Below the pieces are notes generated by a model that ran no database searches, was not told the origin of the DNA, and worked only from the letters and a program-made list of their open reading frames with translations. Below are positions 5,343-12,177 of a stretch of DNA of 64,000 nt, one piece after another. The DNA comes from an uncultured Verrucomicrobiae bacterium (GTDB lineage: Bacteria > Verrucomicrobiota > Verrucomicrobiia > Limisphaerales > Palsa-1400): positions 2,336,001 through 2,400,000 of the forward strand of contig CAVXRD010000002.1 of the NCBI GenBank assembly GCA_963764165.1, read 5' to 3'. Numbering within the stretch: the first letter of the stretch is position 1; each line of letters opens with the position of its first letter. The position numbers and the translations under genes are program-made.

Positions 5343-7568
5343 ATGAGTAATATGATGACAAACCTCATGATCGCTTCGGAACCCAATGACGCAAGTCTCG
5401 TGGCCGCCTCGCTGCAAGGCAATCGGGAAGCCTTTGGGTCCATCGTCCGCCGTTACCAATCGCTCATTTGCGCGCTGGCTTACAACGCGACCGGCAACCT
5501 CAGCCAGAGCGAAGACTTGGCGCAGGAAACTTTCCTCGCCGCGTGGCGGCAATTGCCGGGCTTGCGCGAGCCCGCCAAATTGCGCCCCTGGCTCTGTCGC
5601 ATCGCGCGCAATCTCAGCTGCGATTTGCTTAAGCGCGAGGGACGCGAGCCCGTGGGCGCGGCCGAGTCGCTGGATTCCGTCGCGGAAAGCCACGCCATCG
5701 AGCCGACTCCAATGGAGCGCACGATGTCGCGCGAGGAGGAAGCGATTTTGTGGCGTTCGATTGAGCAATTGCCAGAAGGCTGCCGCGAACCACTGATTCT
5801 TTTCTATCGCGAGCATCGCTCCATCTCGAGTGTGGCGGAGGCGCTGGACTTGTCCGAGGACGCTGTCAAACAAAGACTTTCCCGCGGGCGCAAACTCCTT
5901 GCCGATCAAGTGATGGCGTTCGTGGAAGGCGCATTGGAACGCACCGGCCCGGGACCGGGATTCGCGGGCAACGTCCTGGTGGCGCTGCCAGCGATGACAT
6001 CGACAGTGACAGGAGGCGCAGCGGTGAAAGCTGGGGGGGCCGGACTGAAAGGCCTTCTCGCTGCGGTGTTCCCGATTTTTCTCGGCAATTACGCAGGCTA
6101 CCGGGCAAGCCTTGCCTTGGCTTCGACTGAACAAGAGCGGTTTTATGTCAGGCAATTCTACCAACGGCTTCTCGCCGCCGTCGTCGGTTATTCCGTCCTC
6201 CTATCCGCGCTGGTTTGGTGGGGATCGTTGGAGGGCCGGCATCACAAACAATTGTTGACATCGCTGGTGGCCGGATTGTCTGTGGCGGGCGCTGGAACGT
6301 TTCTCGGGCTGGGGCTTTGGTCGTTCCGAACTGGCCGCCGCTTCGCGCCCACGCGCGCAACTCCGGTGGCGTGGGAATATCGAAGCGCCACTGCGTTTTT
6401 TGGACTGCCGCTGGTGCACATTCGCGTTGGCGGGGCTATGCGCGGGAAGGATTGCGTGGTTAAAGCATGGATTGCGGCTGGCGGATGCGCTGTTGGCGGG
6501 CTGTTCGCCTTCGGCGGGATGGCGGTTGCTCCGATTTCCATAGGAGGGTGCGCGCTCGGAATTATTTCGTGGGGCGGGACGGGCATCGGGCTGCTGCCTG
6601 TGGGAGGACTCGCAATCGGCGCATGGGCGATCGGGGGATTGGCGTTGGGTTGGACCTCTTTCGGCGGTTGCGCAGTGGCCTGGAAAGCGGCGACGGGCGG
6701 AGTCGCCGCTTCCCACGACGTGATGAGCGGCGACGCGACAACAAATGCGTTTTTCCGTGGCGCGACGTGGTTTGTGAGCCATTCATTGTGGTTGAATCTA
6801 GTCTGGGTGGTGCCAATGGTCGGCTGGTGGGCTTTGGCCTCGCGAGCCAAACGCCGGTTGCTGGCTGTCGCATTTACCACAGCGCTCTTCACGTTGACGG
6901 CCAGTCGCCCAGCCATCGCAGGCGATGCGCCTGCGCCGACAAATTCCATGCCTGACCGCTTCGACAATCTCATCCGCGACGATTTCTTTTCCGGCGACCC
7001 GGAGAAATTCAAGCAGGCGATGAAGCTGTGCGAAGACCGCCTGGCCAAGGACCCGAAATATGCGCCCGCGCTGGCCTGGAAAGGCTCGGGCGACCTGGCG
7101 TTGGCGGGAAAGGCGTTCCAAAGCAATGACATCCCGGAAGGCATGCGCCTTTACGAACAAGGTTTGAAGGAAAGCGATGACGCGGTCGCAATGCGGCCCG
7201 GCGATCTGCAAGTTTTGATCCCGCGCGGATCGACTTATCTCGGGATTGCCAAGTACAACCCGGTTCCGCAAGTGTCGCGCCACCTTTACGAGACCGGCGT
7301 GAACGATTACGAGAAAGTGCTCCAATTGCAGCAGCCGCGCTTTGCCCAAGTCTCACGCCACGCCAAGGGCGAGCTTCTTTCGGGTCTGGCCTATGGATAC
7401 CTCGAGCTTGGCAATCTGGAAAAATCCCGCGCCATCCTCGAACGCATAAAAAAAGAATGCCCCGATTCCGCGTATTCCCGCCGGGCGGAGGAATGGCTCG
7501 CCATCAAGGATGTGGCGATTCTAAAGAAAAAAGGCGATGCCATGTCCTGCATTGGCTGTCACGAATAA
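5343..7568 (+). CDS. ECF sigma factor fused to a Gly-rich membrane region and a C-terminal helical (TPR-like) domain ending in CxxCH
   Basis: Sigma region 2 (SEDLAQETFLAAW...WLCRIARN) and region 4 (EDAVKQRLSRGRK), several hydrophobic segments, C-terminal SCIGCHE. Confidence 0.8.
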   Translation: MSNMMTNLMIASEPNDASLVAASLQGNREAFGSIVRRYQSLICALAYNATGNLSQSEDLAQETFLAAWRQLPGLREPAKLRPWLCRIARNLSCDLLKREGREPVGAAESLDSVAESHAIEPTPMERTMSREEEAILWRSIEQLPEGCREPLILFYREHRSISSVAEALDLSEDAVKQRLSRGRKLLADQVMAFVEGALERTGPGPGFAGNVLVALPAMTSTVTGGAAVKAGGAGLKGLLAAVFPIFLGNYAGYRASLALASTEQERFYVRQFYQRLLAAVVGYSVLLSALVWWGSLEGRHHKQLLTSLVAGLSVAGAGTFLGLGLWSFRTGRRFAPTRATPVAWEYRSATAFFGLPLVHIRVGGAMRGKDCVVKAWIAAGGCAVGGLFAFGGMAVAPISIGGCALGIISWGGTGIGLLPVGGLAIGAWAIGGLALGWTSFGGCAVAWKAATGGVAASHDVMSGDATTNAFFRGATWFVSHSLWLNLVWVVPMVGWWALASRAKRRLLAVAFTTALFTLTASRPAIAGDAPAPTNSMPDRFDNLIRDDFFSGDPEKFKQAMKLCEDRLAKDPKYAPALAWKGSGDLALAGKAFQSNDIPEGMRLYEQGLKESDDAVAMRPGDLQVLIPRGSTYLGIAKYNPVPQVSRHLYETGVNDYEKVLQLQQPRFAQVSRHAKGELLSGLAYGYLELGNLEKSRAILERIKKECPDSAYSRRAEEWLAIKDVAILKKKGDAMSCIGCHE

Positions 7569-8273
7569 AGATTTCACCGAAAGGTTTCTTCAACGATTTC
7601 GGTGGAGTAGAAGTGCCCAATTTCAAGACTCGAAGGAGCCGAATTATTTAGAAAGGAGCTGTTCGTCACGCGCCCTTGAAATATTCAACTATGCTGGCGA
7701 CCTGTTTCCCGCTGCATGCAGCGGATTAACTTTGTGATTCTGTTCGTCTGACACCTTCCTCAGGAGTGCAGCATTGAGGGTGAAATCCGCCTCGAAAAAC
7801 CAAGAGTGCAATAGGGTGCAATACCGTGCAATGCCCCGATCACGATTTCTGTTCCTCTGCGCACTCATCTTCTCTGCGCGAGAATTCTTTTCCCGCTGTG
7901 GTTTCATCGCGGCATGAAACGCAATCGCGCGCAGAGGCGCGGAGAACGCAGAGGTTCCTCGCGGCCTGAAATGAACCGCAAAATATCAAAGAACACGCCT
8001 TGACGGCGACAGGGAGAAAAATAAGCCCAAAAATCTTTTTTGTCAATTATGCTTGCAGTTCCACGTTTCTGTGGTCTTTTCGAAAGCGTATGACAGCCGT
8101 ATCATCGATTGTTCAGCCGGGGCCGGAGGCGAAAACAGCGCCGGCAGCGCCGGGCCAGGAGTGCCGCGGGCCGACCGGCCGCGCCCGCACCAGCAAAATC
8201 GCGCGCCTGCCCGCCGATAAATGCCCGTCAATCCCGTTGGGATTGCTGGGCGGGCTGCAAGCAGTAACACGAC

Positions 8274-8584
8274 GCGGTTTTTACGGTCCCGGCGCGAGTC
8301 GCGGGAATGGCAGTGGATGAAGACGGATTCCCTTTTCCGAAGACAAAAGTGTAAAAAGTGAGGATTGACGCCGGCCTCGTGCTCACCTCGTGCGCACCTT
8401 TTGGTGGCTTCGGCTGGTCAGACTCAGAATCCTTTTTGCGTCTTGGCGACTTTGCGACTTTGCGTTGAAATTCTTGCCGCCGACATGCGGTTCTTACGGC
8501 CCGGGCGCGAGCGGCGGGAATGGCAGCGGATGAAGACTGATTCCCACTTCCACATACAAAAGTGTCAAAAGTGAGGATTGACGC
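8274..8584 (+). repeat. Two ~98-bp direct repeats (8274-8371, 8487-8584) ending in the end motif; partial third copy at 9410-9465
   Basis: GGATGAAGACKGATTCCC...CAAAAGTGTMAAAAGTGAGGATTGAC seen in two copies and a variant in the third. Confidence 0.85.
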
Positions 8585-8669
8585 TGGTATGACGCTGTTG
8601 GTCTGTTAAACCCTTTTTTGGGAGTTGATTTGGGCTGAGAAGGTTTGCATCTTGGCACCTGTTGGCGGC

Positions 8670-8855
8670 GTGAAAATTCGGGACATGATACGTCTGATTG
8701 AAGATGATGGCTGGTTCTTGGATCGAACTCGCGGCAGCCATCGGCAATACAAACACCCGGTCAAGCGAGGGCTGGTAACTGTGGCTGGCAAGCCGGGCGA
8801 TGACCTTGCGCCGGGGACAAAAAACAGCATATTAAAACAGGCAGGATTGAAATGA
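8670..8855 (+). CDS. hicA: HicA family mRNA interferase toxin
   Basis: DGWFLDRTRGSHRQYKHP...VTVAG...GTKNSILKQAGL. Confidence 0.9.
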   Translation: MKIRDMIRLIEDDGWFLDRTRGSHRQYKHPVKRGLVTVAGKPGDDLAPGTKNSILKQAGLK

Positions 8856-9067
8856 GCCGATACTTGATCGTTATTGAGAATACCGTCACGGGCTTCTCAG
8901 CGTATTCACCGGATTTGCCTGGCTGCGCCGCGACGGGCGAGACCCGCGATGTGGTTGAGTCCGAGATGCACGACGCGATTGAATTCCACATCGAGGGCCT
9001 GCGAAGGGCTGGCGAGCCCGTGCCTCAGCCCCGATCTCACGCCGCGTATTGCGACGTGGCAGCTTAA
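8852..9067 (+). CDS. hicB: HicB family antitoxin
   Basis: YLIVIE...FSAYSPDLPGCAATGET...AIEFHIEGL. 4-nt overlap with hicA. Confidence 0.9.
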   Translation: MSRYLIVIENTVTGFSAYSPDLPGCAATGETRDVVESEMHDAIEFHIEGLRRAGEPVPQPRSHAAYCDVAA

Positions 9068-9571
9068 CAGACTCTGTCCGTCAAGGCAGCGAGGAACTTC
9101 CCACCGCCCCAAAAACAGCAAGAAGGGGAATTCCCGAAACCTTTGCGTCCTTGCGTTAAGAATGTCTTTGCTGCGGGGACCGAAGGGAAAACGGAGGGGA
9201 ATTAACGCCATGAGGCCAAGGCCCATGGACGCGGAGATTCTGCCGATTTTTCAGACGCCTCTTCTCAGCGTTGAAATAAATATGTAATTATGTTGGGCTG
9301 ACCCCTCGCTCGGACCGGTAGGGCGGCGCTGCGTCGCCGCCCCAGTATCGCTTTCCCGCAACAAGCCCGCAGGACACGAAGAAATTTGGCTTTTATCTGA
9401 CGGATGGGCCGGATGAAGACTGATTCCCATTTCCAAATACAAAAGTGTCAAATGTGAGGGTGATGTTAGCACCGATTTGAAAATGCAGATGGATGTGGCT
9501 GGCGGCGCGCAGAGGGGCTGGATTATTGTGTTTCAATAAGTGAAGCGGTCGCATAATAAGGGCTTGATCGC

Positions 9572-10228
9572 ATGTCCTTTTTTGACCGTCAATATGAAGT
9601 GTTTGCTGTGCTTGGCGACCCAAAAGCCGAGCCGGCTTGGAGCGAGCCAAGATGGGAGCGCATCGCAGACATTTTCGACCCGATCGTCCAGAAGGCACGA
9701 GATCGTGCCGCCGTGCGCTCGACCCAATTGAGTATCGGGCCGGGATCTCCCAACCAACGGGCGATCTCATTTGGTCGTATCGGCTGGAACGCCCCAAGTC
9801 ACAAGAAGTGGGTTCACGCGGCCGCAAGGGGCGATAGAGCCGAGTTTATAAGCACAGAAGTGTGGGCGCCATCGTGGACCACCTGTGAACGGGAGGGCCG
9901 TGCTCCAGATGTTTACCTCGCGGTTCGTAATGAGCAGTCAGTTCCCGGAGAGCGAGTTGGTTTTAATCCTGGTTTCATATTTGCTTTAGCGCTCGACCAG
10001 GATAGTAAGATCGTTTCCCGTGGAAAACCAAGCGCTGAAGCCTTGGCCACTCTGCTCGGCTCCCTCCTTCGCGTGCGCTGTGTTCGGCCGTGGGGCTATC
10101 GGCATGGCGACGTTGGGTTTACCAGTGCGATTGGGGATTTATATGTTACAGGGCTATTCAAACCGGGGCCGCGAAATCAGCAACCACTTTCTCCGAATAT
10201 GTTGACGGGGCATTGGGAGGTGTTCTGA
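9572..10228 (+). CDS. Hypothetical protein (cassette-like cargo)
   Basis: 218-aa clean ORF between end motifs, followed by an attC-like hairpin. Confidence 0.7.
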   Translation: MSFFDRQYEVFAVLGDPKAEPAWSEPRWERIADIFDPIVQKARDRAAVRSTQLSIGPGSPNQRAISFGRIGWNAPSHKKWVHAAARGDRAEFISTEVWAPSWTTCEREGRAPDVYLAVRNEQSVPGERVGFNPGFIFALALDQDSKIVSRGKPSAEALATLLGSLLRVRCVRPWGYRHGDVGFTSAIGDLYVTGLFKPGPRNQQPLSPNMLTGHWEVF

Positions 10229-10312
10229 AGTCTTTGCAGCGAACGCGCTGGGTGCACCGGATTTCAAACCGGAGCAATTGACGGCGCGTCGTTGATCGTC
10301 ATCTTTAAGGCG
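10224..10312 (+). other. Degenerate attC-like imperfect inverted repeat
   Basis: CAGCGAACGCGC pairs with GCGCGTCGTTG leaving an extra base. Starts at the ORF stop codon. Core RYYYAAC/GTTRRRY boxes are decayed. Confidence 0.45.
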
Positions 10313-10386
10313 TTTCGATCTGATCCTTCATACGGTAACTTTGCCTTCGATGATCACCGTTTCAGCGTGCCAGTGTCAGTGCCAGT

Positions 10387-10555
10387 GTCAGTCCCCACTA
10401 TTTGCACTTTGGATTTGATATTGGGCACGGGGTGCAGGAGGGTCGCCGCATGCCGCGCCAATTGCGCCTGGAATATCGCGGGACGGTCTATGGGCAGTTG
10501 GCGCCTGTGTCGAACCTTTTGCGAAAAGCAAAAAGTGCAAAAAGTGAGGACTGAC
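10387..10555 (+). mobile_element. Non-autonomous mini-element: internally deleted REP-associated Y1 tyrosine transposase between outward-facing inverted end motifs
   Basis: ORF 10450-10554 reads MPRQLRLEYRGTVY-GQLAPVSNLLRKAKSAKSED, i.e. RAYT-like N- and C-termini. Inverted ends at 10387-10410 and 10531-10555. Confidence 0.7.
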
Positions 10556-10562
10556 GCGGAGA

Positions 10563-10766
10563 CTGACATGTCCTGGCGCGACATGTAGCCATACAGGTTG
10601 TGTAGCCTGCTGTACGGGGGGACTTGCATTAGGAACAGCAGGAATAATTGCCGCTAGTAGCTCAGGATTGTTGTCTTGGCTCAGCGGATCAATTCTTCTT
10701 GCGGGGCAAGCTGCGTTGACTTATGATTACGCCCAATGTATGGCAGGGTGTCAAGGTAAACCATAG
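10563..10766 (+). pseudogene. Headless Cys-rich hydrophobic C-terminal fragment resembling a polymorphic (Rhs-type) toxin tip
   Basis: Open frame with no start codon: TCPGATCSHTGCVACCTGGLALGTAGIIAASSSGLLSWLSGSILLAGQAALTYDYAQCMAGCQGKP*. Confidence 0.5.
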
Positions 10767-10786
10767 GTTTGATTTTTGACATTTGT

Positions 10787-11152
10787 ATGGATTCAACAAC
10801 GACTGCACGCGAAAGAGACCCAATGGGCCGCACCAAAATGTGGGGACTTGCTCTTTGTTTGTTGCCCATACTAATACAAACTTATTATGTGTGCTATAGA
10901 TGTTATAAAAGTGCCGTAGATGCCGCAAAGAGGGGTGGGCATTCGTTTTTCGGGGCGGGTGGAGGGGTGATGGAGACGGCTTTTCTCAGCTTGTCGTACG
11001 TCATCTTCTTGCTGGCTATAGGACTATATCTTATTTTGCTTTTGGCAGGTTTTAGCAAGAGCACCCGATTATACTGGACCGCATACATCGCAAGTAGTGT
11101 TTTACTACTAATCTGGATTTCCGTTGGAGTCATCGGTCTGTTGATAAAATGA
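10787..11152 (+). CDS. Small AT-rich 3-TM membrane protein (possible immunity protein)
   Basis: Three hydrophobic helices, directly after the toxin-like fragment. Confidence 0.6.
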   Translation: MDSTTTARERDPMGRTKMWGLALCLLPILIQTYYVCYRCYKSAVDAAKRGGHSFFGAGGGVMETAFLSLSYVIFLLAIGLYLILLLAGFSKSTRLYWTAYIASSVLLLIWISVGVIGLLIK

Positions 11153-11316
11153 ACTGGTACGAATCCATTTTGAAATCGTGTTTTCGTCAATTACGAAATC
11201 AAGAACCCATGTTCGATGCGGAAGGTGAAAACGAGCAATCTTTCCGATTCTTTCCAGAATTATTCGAAGCGCAGGCTAAAGCGCTCGCACTTTTAGAGTG
11301 CAGGTGTCATGCAGGT

Positions 11317-11339
11317 GTCACCCCTCACTTTTTGCACTT
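11317..11339 (-). repeat. End motif copy (AAGTGCAAAAAGTGAGGGGTGAC)
   Basis: Reverse-complement match to 10531-10555. Adjacent 11-bp tandem duplication. Confidence 0.8.
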
Positions 11340-11481
11340 AACGAGACCGGCTGGAATTTCGGCGGCTCCAAGACGATTTGCTGAATAGCCGGAAACCGGA
11401 GTCTCAGCCCGCTTTTAATCCCGCTCTTCTGATTCTCGGCGAATCCAATTCGGATCTCGTCTCAAATCCACAAAGCTTTCC

Positions 11482-11700
11482 TCATGCCTTATCCCGGGCA
11501 AGCCGCCGCTTTAGCTGCGAGGCCGTGAGAAACTTCCCTTTGCCACCTTTAACTTTGGCGAGACGTTTTTCCAGTATTTCGCCATGCCAAGCTGGCGATT
11601 CAAGTTGGTTGGGGTTTGAAGCGAGCGAGCGCCAAAGGAGCTCCATGGCTTCCAACCGCTCTGCCACACTCATGCGCTCGACTTCCGCTGATCCAATCAC
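11482..11700 (-). CDS. Orphan addiction module antitoxin (TIGR02574-like)
   Basis: MSVAERLEAMELLWRSL...SPAWHGEILEKRL. No intact toxin downstream. Confidence 0.8.
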   Translation of the reverse strand: MIGSAEVERMSVAERLEAMELLWRSLASNPNQLESPAWHGEILEKRLAKVKGGKGKFLTASQLKRRLARDKA

Positions 11701-11762
11701 GTCGAAAGGCTAGCTCCCCGGCGGCACGGCCGCATGTATGGGATTTTGTGTTTCTCTCGCCG

Positions 11763-12026
11763 GGGCGCATCTCAGTTTTTGTGAGGGCGGACTTCTGCCA
11801 AAAGCTCGGCAGGTCGACAAGTGATCGCTCTCACCCCGCCAAGCTTGGCGGGGAGAAAGAAGGAGAGATGGGCAACTCATTAGAAATCGGAGAGGCCAGG
11901 CGCATTGAGGGCCGATGGATTTCAGTCGTTGCCTAACCGCCCCTCTCCCTAACCCTCTCCCCGCTGCGCGGGGCGAGGGAATCCGCGATTCGTCGGCAAG
12001 GGATTGCCAATAAGTGAGATGCGCCC
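11763..12026. mobile_element. MITE with 12-bp TIRs and 9-bp target site duplication
   Basis: GGGCGCATCTCA / TGAGATGCGCCC. Perfect TSD ctctcgccg at 11754-11762 and 12027-12035. Internal CCCTCTCCC-type palindromes. Confidence 0.85.
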
Positions 12027-12177
12027 CTCTCGCCGGTGTCGTCGGTCAGCGCGTCGATTGAAAAATGGCGTTCATTTTAGGATGAATAATTTCAGAGACG
12101 TGATCTGAGGTCTAAAAAATATTCTGTTCATCCCGTACATCCTGTCAAAATTCCGCGAAAAACCCAGTTCAACTCGA

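What the first reader, a model, noticed from the sequence alone, without database searches (positions are those of the whole stretch)
8274..11339. Candidate Y1-transposase-end gene-capture array: inward-facing 25-bp motifs bracket unrelated foreign fragments
Seen: six copies of AAAGTG(C/T)(A/C)AAWWGTGRGG..TGA(C/T) at 8345, 8558, 9441 and 10531 (+), and 10387-10410 and 11317-11339 (-), plus a divergent ...TTGGGCTGACCCC at ~9278-9306. DNA changes character right after the TGAC ends. The pairs 9465/10387 and 10555/11317 face inward and each encloses a 0.75-0.9 kb, less GC-rich insert; hicAB follows the 8558 copy. One insert starts in mid-gene, so capture appears to ignore gene boundaries. No integron integrase and no full transposase lie in the window. 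Inference: these are recognition ends of a REP-associated HUH (Y1) transposase acting in trans, and they assemble a cassette-like array of TA, immunity and hypothetical genes. That would be an integron-like acquisition system built on different chemistry.
Basis: partly seen in the sequence, partly recalled or inferred. Interest (0 to 1): 0.85.

Follow-up and report, generated by a model that had tools for sequence, protein, structure and literature searches.

The report
TIRtron ends framing swapped gene cargo
The repeats are the end sequences of a named but untested single-strand-DNA transposon (TIRtron); left-over ends face each other across unrelated toxin-antitoxin, unknown and broken genes that join at a nearly fixed point seven bases beyond the repeat, so the transposase likely splices new DNA onto single ends, although a dedicated integron-like system is not shown.

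Summary
The motif is real. It is the terminal inverted repeat (TIR) of TIRtron elements (TIRYT, Y1-HUH subclass 2.1), not a REP: it brackets three cognate transposase genes elsewhere in this genome and 68 of 80 related genes, and it does not fold. Window 10387-10555 is an internally deleted mini-TIRtron; the other copies are solo ends. Ends show no target duplication, the two flanks of an element are not one interrupted gene (12/59, shuffled 59/300, intact DNA 103/163), and ends are re-joined to 5'-variable pieces of themselves. Seven islands here share the same arms with different middles. Best reading: one-ended joining of a TIR end to new DNA, which swaps cargo as a by-product. No circles, empty sites or activity were shown, most relatives (55/68) lack arrays, and the only full-length cognate ORF here has a changed HUH motif. 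The scan noted TIRYT-end arrays in at least 33 genomes before.

The parts
7784..8272 (+). Shared left arm: repeat A1 (7784-7848), repeat A3 (7973-8219) and the first 73 codons of a Mu gp27-like gene that is complete in sister islands
8274..8376 (+). Solo end, stub type B (about 95 bp), GAC ends 8369, 7-nt tail to 8376
8487..8600 (+). Solo end, stub type B, GAC ends 8582; terminal 11-nt unit repeated once
8625..9067 (+). hicA-hicB toxin-antitoxin pair (cargo)
   Evidence: PF07927 E 7e-22, PF15919 E 3e-9
9195..9309 (+). Solo end of a second TIRYT subfamily (TGACCCC type), GAC ends 9302
   Evidence: same end follows transposase 3' fragments at C4:165-167 kb
9410..9471 (+). Solo end, shortened stub B, ends TGAT at 9464, tail to 9471
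9472..10228 (+). Cargo 1: 100 bp leader plus a 218-aa protein of unknown function; 84% identical to G001:C80, where no matching end was found; homology starts at +8
10305..10369 (-). Stub of a multi-copy IS (read by eye as the 3' end of an IS21-type istB), cut at the tail of the 10387 end
10368..10562 (+). Mini-TIRtron 10387-10555 (left TIR, transposase codons 1-14, last codons, right TIR) with tails; left terminal 12-nt unit repeated once
   Evidence: (I1)
10563..11298 (+). Cargo 2 (GC 0.46): start-less frame of about 69 codons ending at 10766, then a 127-aa hydrophobic ORF 10769-11152; no family found
11299..11379 (-). Solo end, stub type C (shared right arm), GAC at 11317; terminal 11-nt unit repeated once

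Best explanation
The repeats are TIRtron terminal inverted repeats, and the TIRYT HUH transposase likely nicks one strand about 7 bases beyond the GAC of a single end and joins that fixed 3' end to another DNA strand at a loosely chosen site. Shown: identity of the ends, position of the join, lack of target duplication, mismatched flanks, different middles between shared arms. Inferred: the chemistry, the enzyme and the single-end mode. If the partner site lies just upstream in the same end or element, the end is reiterated (11-13-nt units, or up to 600-bp end-anchored pieces); if it lies downstream, neighbouring DNA is deleted in mid-gene; if it lies on other DNA, that DNA is gained. Two ends facing each other then bound a replaceable middle, and toxin-antitoxin and defence-like genes would be the pieces that persist. 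Cargo turnover would be a by-product of transposition, probably historical in this genome.
For: TIRs bracket three transposase genes at C4:238-242 kb and 68 of 80 related genes. Motifs NHFH, YVHLNP, WSS fit subclass 2.1. Donor homology starts exactly at +8 in 6 of 9 mapped junctions, at +9 in 1, and is compatible with +8 through 2-3 nt of microhomology in 2. Base bias outside GAC fades by +9/+10; first base after the tail is C or T in 96 of 118 flanks and in 7 of 7 window ends. Terminal unit reiterated in 10 of 134 related ends against 14 of 1433 control sites, and 5 of 24 own ends against 120 of 24356. G004 holds five left ends in tandem, four followed at +7 by a differently truncated piece of the same element. 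No exact target duplication in 51 of 59, the rest 2-3 nt; joined flanks open in 12 of 59, shuffled 59 of 300, intact DNA 103 of 163. Seven islands share left arm and right arm with mostly unrelated middles. Outermost ends face inward in 8 of 9 two-orientation clusters, outward in 0. An 856-bp end-to-end unit with a PIN-toxin pair is 96.5% identical in two islands with different next cargo.
Against: No read-level or in vitro evidence. Donor-mapped junctions are a selected set: 30 of 38 own ends had no informative outward homology near the end, and four of the nine come from one locus. 55 of 68 related elements have no extra end within 8 kb, and the nearest extra end faces the element in 7 cases and runs in tandem in 9. 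Flanks are less often coding than random DNA (78/125 against 195/232), so part of the flank mismatch can be intergenic insertion. The C4 cluster turns 'mixed' if its weak leftmost end is counted (7 of 9 inward). The only full-length cognate ORF has NYFH. Ordinary IS also lose target duplications by adjacent deletion and recombination (PMC11708052, abstract). The G001 copy of cargo 1 is only 84% identical and is not proven to be the donor.
Confidence: 0.55

Rival explanations
1. Insertion hot spot and graveyard: whole TIRtrons insert into dispensable DNA; host recombination between copies and ordinary deletions leave solo ends beside unrelated accessory genes. Single ends do not join new DNA.
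For: 55 of 68 elements stand alone; flanks are partly intergenic; islands also hold other mobile debris (IS stub, RAYT gene, REP-like repeats); loss of target duplications is common for IS (PMC11708052, abstract).
Against: Host recombination does not predict joins fixed at +7/+8 without homology, end-anchored tandem pieces, or inward polarity with no intact lone element orientation.
Confidence: 0.27
2. Dedicated integron-like acquisition platform: facing ends, with the gp27-like left arm, are a maintained site that takes up gene-sized cassettes through a transposase in trans.
For: Seven islands keep the same arms with different middles; L040 has one full element and three mini-elements spaced by gene-sized pieces including a whole SMI1/KNR4 gene; G001:C45 shows the same layout with whole genes; cargo includes HicAB, DUF433, ParE-like, PIN and HEC-01-like genes.
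Against: Many inserts are broken fragments; no cassette-borne site, no excess of promoter-like sites (2 found, 2.2 expected), no circles or empty sites seen; no clearly intact cognate enzyme in this assembly; stub B found in only 2 of 30 family genomes, weakly. Cargo enrichment was not tested against other islands.
Confidence: 0.13
3. The reiterations and joins are made by host repair synthesis (template slippage at a break or hairpin) or are assembly errors, with the transposase only marking the place.
For: Two of nine junctions have microhomology; some reiterated ends look like slippage tracts (L058, L071); reads could not be checked (one search listed none).
Against: Reiterations occur in many independent assemblies and stop at the same +7/+8 position; six junctions have no microhomology.
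Confidence: 0.04
4. REP/RAYT system: the motifs are REP-like recognition hairpins of a RAYT.
For: Seven other Y1 genes lie in the genome and one lies inside the C5 island.
Against: Six ends tested fold no better than shuffles (z -0.66 to 1.63); the motif flanks the 316-aa TIRYT as inverted repeats; below the RAYT model cut-off.
Confidence: 0.01

Closest known systems
TIRtron / TIRYT (Di Nocera, De Gregorio, Rocco 2013, PMC3733652), equated with TnpA-Y1 subclass 2.1 (Quentin et al. 2018, PMC6006769)
   Same: Y1-HUH gene with C-terminal extension between terminal inverted repeats; GGGGTCAG (GGGGWSAS) ends in most relatives; solo and clustered TIR copies; no REP hairpin.
   Different: This lineage has GTGTCAG ends. 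The passages read do not describe the join position, the 7-nt tail, end reiteration, lack of target duplication, or cargo between facing ends, and report no activity.
IS91 family one-ended transposition (PMC13181058, passages)
   Same: HUH chemistry, no target duplication, one end can mobilise adjacent DNA.
   Different: IS91 has unlike oriIS/terIS ends with palindromes and a tetranucleotide target; here both ends are inverted copies without hairpins and the enzyme is of the IS200-like Y1 fold.
IS200/IS605 TnpA and TnpA-REP (PMC3479197, abstract and one section)
   Same: Y1 fold (Foldseek best hits 2fyx, 2a6m, 4er8, E about 0.01); low-specificity cleavage (CT for TnpA-REP) is a precedent for a loose partner site.
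   Different: Those recognise subterminal or REP hairpins; these ends do not fold.
Integrons (from my own knowledge)
   Same: Variable gene-sized pieces, often toxin-antitoxin or unknown, at a repeated site.
   Different: No cassette-borne attC-like site, joins cut genes, ends belong to the platform and face each other; no tyrosine recombinase implicated.

Membership tests
TIRtron / TIRYT (subclass 2.1) | Y1-HUH core with NH[YF]H, Y[IV]HLNP and SS motifs | tested here: met
   NHFH in 7 of 8 aligned proteins, YVHLNP and WSS in 8 of 8 (table); the own full-length copy has NYFH
TIRtron / TIRYT (subclass 2.1) | Gene flanked by terminal inverted repeats | tested here: met
   (68 of 80)
TIRtron / TIRYT (subclass 2.1) | GGGGWSAS motif in the TIR | tested here: met
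   GGGGTC-type ends are the commonest among relatives and at window 9302; the main window motif is the GTGTCAG variant
TIRtron / TIRYT (subclass 2.1) | C-terminal helix-turn-helix domain | tested here: inconclusive
   Confident all-helical C-terminal domain (pLDDT about 89, residues 241-300), but no Pfam HTH hit and no fold match for it
REP / RAYT (TnpA-REP) | Repeat folds as a hairpin | tested here: not met
   six ends
REP / RAYT (TnpA-REP) | Protein passes the RAYT model NF047646 | tested here: not met
   39-54 bits against cut-off 80 for three proteins
Classical TIR insertion sequence | Target-site duplication, continuous flanks | tested here: not met
Integron | IntI tyrosine recombinase and attC sites | not tested
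   no search was run for IntI or attC in the window
Integron | Circular cassette intermediates, empty sites | not testable with these tools
   no sequencing run was listed
IS91 / ISCR | Unlike oriIS and terIS ends | tested here: not met
   both ends are inverted copies

The most novel reading that the evidence does not exclude
TIRYT ends are a gene-acquisition device on HUH chemistry: a fixed 3' end seven bases past the repeat is joined to almost any incoming pyrimidine-initial strand, two facing ends form a reusable landing site that needs no site on the cargo, and the host lineage has copied one such platform (gp27-like left arm, stub B, stub C) to seven places where toxin-antitoxin, defence and surface genes are swapped.
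Probability: 0.28. Interest if true: 0.8.

Novelty: new variant of a known kind. Interest (0 to 1): 0.55.

Why it matters
Subclass 2.1 is the second largest Y1 group (14.9% of strains in PMC6006769), and the papers found report no activity for it. The mapped join (+7/+8 after GAC, pyrimidine next, no duplication) gives exact substrates for a first cleavage and strand-transfer assay. If single ends join foreign strands, TIRtrons would be an overlooked source of variable defence and toxin-antitoxin islands and a site-independent DNA joining tool.

Tried and rejected
Sequencing runs: none was listed, so no reads were laid. Viral contigs: 0 exact motif matches. Empty site in relatives: flanking genes fall on different contigs or places in the genus genomes, no syntenic locus was obtained. 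Hairpin model: rejected. Promoters and terminators: at chance level. Cargo 1 protein: 109 homologs, named hypothetical or unnamed, 2 of 301 order genomes, Atlas hits under 0.8, no Pfam, NCBIfam or PADLOC hit. Cargo 2: an Rhs origin suggested by an RDPMG motif (recalled) was not confirmed; the wider search had not finished at submission. Rhs-like motifs near related elements are few (9 flank-bin hits within 4 kb, 1 beyond) and are not used as evidence. PDB sequence search with the alignment: 0 hits. The structure model is weak overall (pLDDT 58). Metagenome scan for stub B: 9 loci, one unrelated, no transposase in any, three share downstream DNA with degenerate own copies. Two look-ups in earlier findings for the junction or reiteration returned nothing, and the sequence look-up none.

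Full report
Observation. The six copies and the divergent seventh site are in the sequence. A profile built from the 23 pattern hits finds 44 sites in the 7.0-Mb genome against 7 in the reversed genome. hicA and hicB are confirmed. Insert 2 is GC-poor (0.463), insert 1 hardly (0.548). No Y1 gene lies in the window.

What the motif is. At G000:C4:237.8-242.5 kb three copies of a transposase gene each sit between the motif in inverted orientation, with 0.9-1.1 kb of unrelated DNA between the copies. One is a full 316-aa frame, one is frameshifted, one is internally deleted. The best 80 of 435 related loci (titles mostly Verrucomicrobiota) gave a TIR pair in 68. The protein motifs fit subclass 2.1 in Table 1 of Quentin et al. 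2018, which that paper equates with the TIRYT of Di Nocera et al. 2013. The family is common: 27 of 31 family genomes have a match. The ends do not fold and the protein is below the RAYT cut-off, so 'REP-associated' is wrong. The 9302 site is the end of a second subfamily whose 3' gene fragments lie at C4:165-167 kb.

Where the join lies. Outside GAC the base composition stays biased to about +9 and is flat from +10 or +11. Where a homolog of the outward DNA exists, homology begins at +8 in six cases (window 9464; C2:3331959; L030; three in L165), is compatible with +8 through microhomology in two (window 10387, judged by eye; one in L165), and begins at +9 in one (C1:318738). These nine are selected by having a donor: of 38 own ends, 30 gave no informative homology near the end or only shared dead-end DNA (my count from the listing). 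The first base after the 7-nt tail is C 55, T 41, G 19, A 3 in 118 flanks. There is no target duplication (51 of 59 none, 8 with 2-3 nt), and the joined flanks of an element carry a spanning frame no more often than random pairs (12/59 against 59/300; intact DNA 103/163; 9 of the 68 were left out for short flanks). Flanks are somewhat less coding than random DNA (78/125 against 195/232), which explains part but probably not all of that gap.

Ends are re-joined to themselves. The last 11-13 bases are repeated in 10 of 134 related ends (control 14 of 1433) and 5 of 24 own ends (background 120 of 24356), three of them in the window. The commonest restart position is +7 (17 of 69 repeated copies; 33 of the 69 come from one tract, L071). 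L058 carries a 400-bp tract of end fragments with variable starts and the same stop. In G004 (L165) five left ends lie in tandem, and four are followed by a piece of the same element that starts at a different internal point and runs to the same end. Fixed 3' end with variable 5' start is what joining of one TIR end to loosely chosen sites would give (inference).

Island layout. 60 ends form 31 clusters; in the nine with both orientations the outermost ends face inward in 8, outward in 0 (control 2 hits). Counting a weak end makes C4 mixed. Seven islands, the window among them, share a left arm (A1, A3, a Mu gp27-like gene, 91-95% identical over 1.0-1.45 kb in the complete copies, stub B) and a right arm (stub C), while the middles are mostly unrelated; three share a RAYT fragment and two a DUF433 block. 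Cargo with a family hit includes HicAB, a HicB-like gene, DUF433, ParE-like, DUF4062, an AAA_21 plus DUF4276 pair (HEC-01-like), Ig, LRR and cadherin surface proteins and TetR with a dehydrogenase; 30 of 46 frames scanned had no Pfam hit, some being wrong frames. An 856-bp unit from one stub to the next end, holding a PIN-toxin pair, is 96.5% identical in two islands 2.3 Mb apart and is followed by different DNA. G001:C45 and L040 show the same layout with whole genes. Against generality: only 13 of 68 related elements have an extra element-specific end within 8 kb (33 ends, control 0), and the nearest faces the element in 7 cases and runs in tandem in 9.

Mechanism. Shown: end identity, join position, no duplication, mismatched flanks, reiteration, shared arms with different middles. 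Inferred: TIRYT nicks at +7/+8 and joins the TIR 3' end to another strand; upstream partners give reiteration, downstream partners deletion, foreign partners gain. HUH one-ended mobilisation without duplication has a precedent in IS91 (PMC13181058), and loose CT cleavage in TnpA-REP (PMC3479197). The rival is an insertion hot spot reshaped by ordinary deletions (PMC11708052). The system may be inactive here, since the only full frame reads NYFH; whether that is real could not be checked without reads.

Literature. Seven searches; 'TIRYT' occurs in two works only, and none of the listings describes cargo capture by TIR ends. Seen: PMC6006769 passages and sections 17 and 20; PMC3733652 passages; PMC3479197 abstract and section 19; PMC11708052 abstract; PMC13181058 passages. 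Figures and supplements (TIR sequences in Fig. 9 and the additional files of PMC3733652) were not seen and may hold related ends. Subscription journals are mostly outside the library. Names recalled and not tested: IS21 istB, IS4-like repeat, YbbR-like, Rhs motif, integron features. The scan itself has 40 earlier notes on TIRYT-end arrays in at least 33 genomes; they agree with the family call but are not independent evidence.

Verdict. Real feature, known element family, undescribed end behaviour. New variant of a known kind; interest 0.55.

Noticed in passing
window 7784-7848 and 7973-8219: Repeat A1 (tandem GGGTGCAATA units) has 70 pattern hits and A3 about 50 hits in the genome; A3 is the promoter and start of a Mu gp27-like gene complete at only about 7 places. 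Several A1 copies abut a TIRtron left-end remnant.
   Followed up: partly
L019, L038, L050, L056, L058, L065, L075: 7 of 136 tails are replaced from +3 by the same GAATGG..TTAGTTAAG sequence, which I recall as an IS4-type end: another IS may target TIRtron ends.
   Followed up: no
L058 right end; L071 left end; L028 right end: Telomere-like tracts of 100-400 bp built from scrambled end fragments.
   Followed up: partly
L165 (G004:C2:2546-2548 kb): Near-identical left ends carry different tails and mix left-end and right-end TIR variants, as if the two TIRs exchange sequence.
   Followed up: partly
window 11757-12035: A 270-bp repeat with at least 10 near-full copies in the genome (54 hits in all).
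   Followed up: no
window 11482-11700 (-): Lone addiction-module antitoxin (PF09720) just outside the right arm.
   Followed up: no
window 5343-7568: ECF sigma factor fused to a long hydrophobic glycine-rich stretch and a TPR-like domain ending in a CxxCH motif; possibly two genes run together.
   Followed up: no
G000:C2:1129585, 1334761, 2571142, 3514310: Four stub-B copies that lost the TGAC share the same 70 bp downstream, whereas copies that keep it each have their own neighbour, consistent with dead ends inherited as a block.
   Followed up: partly
L103 (G001:C80): The cargo-1 homolog sits between a relaxase-like gene (read by eye) and small plasmid-type genes, with no matching end found.
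   Followed up: partly
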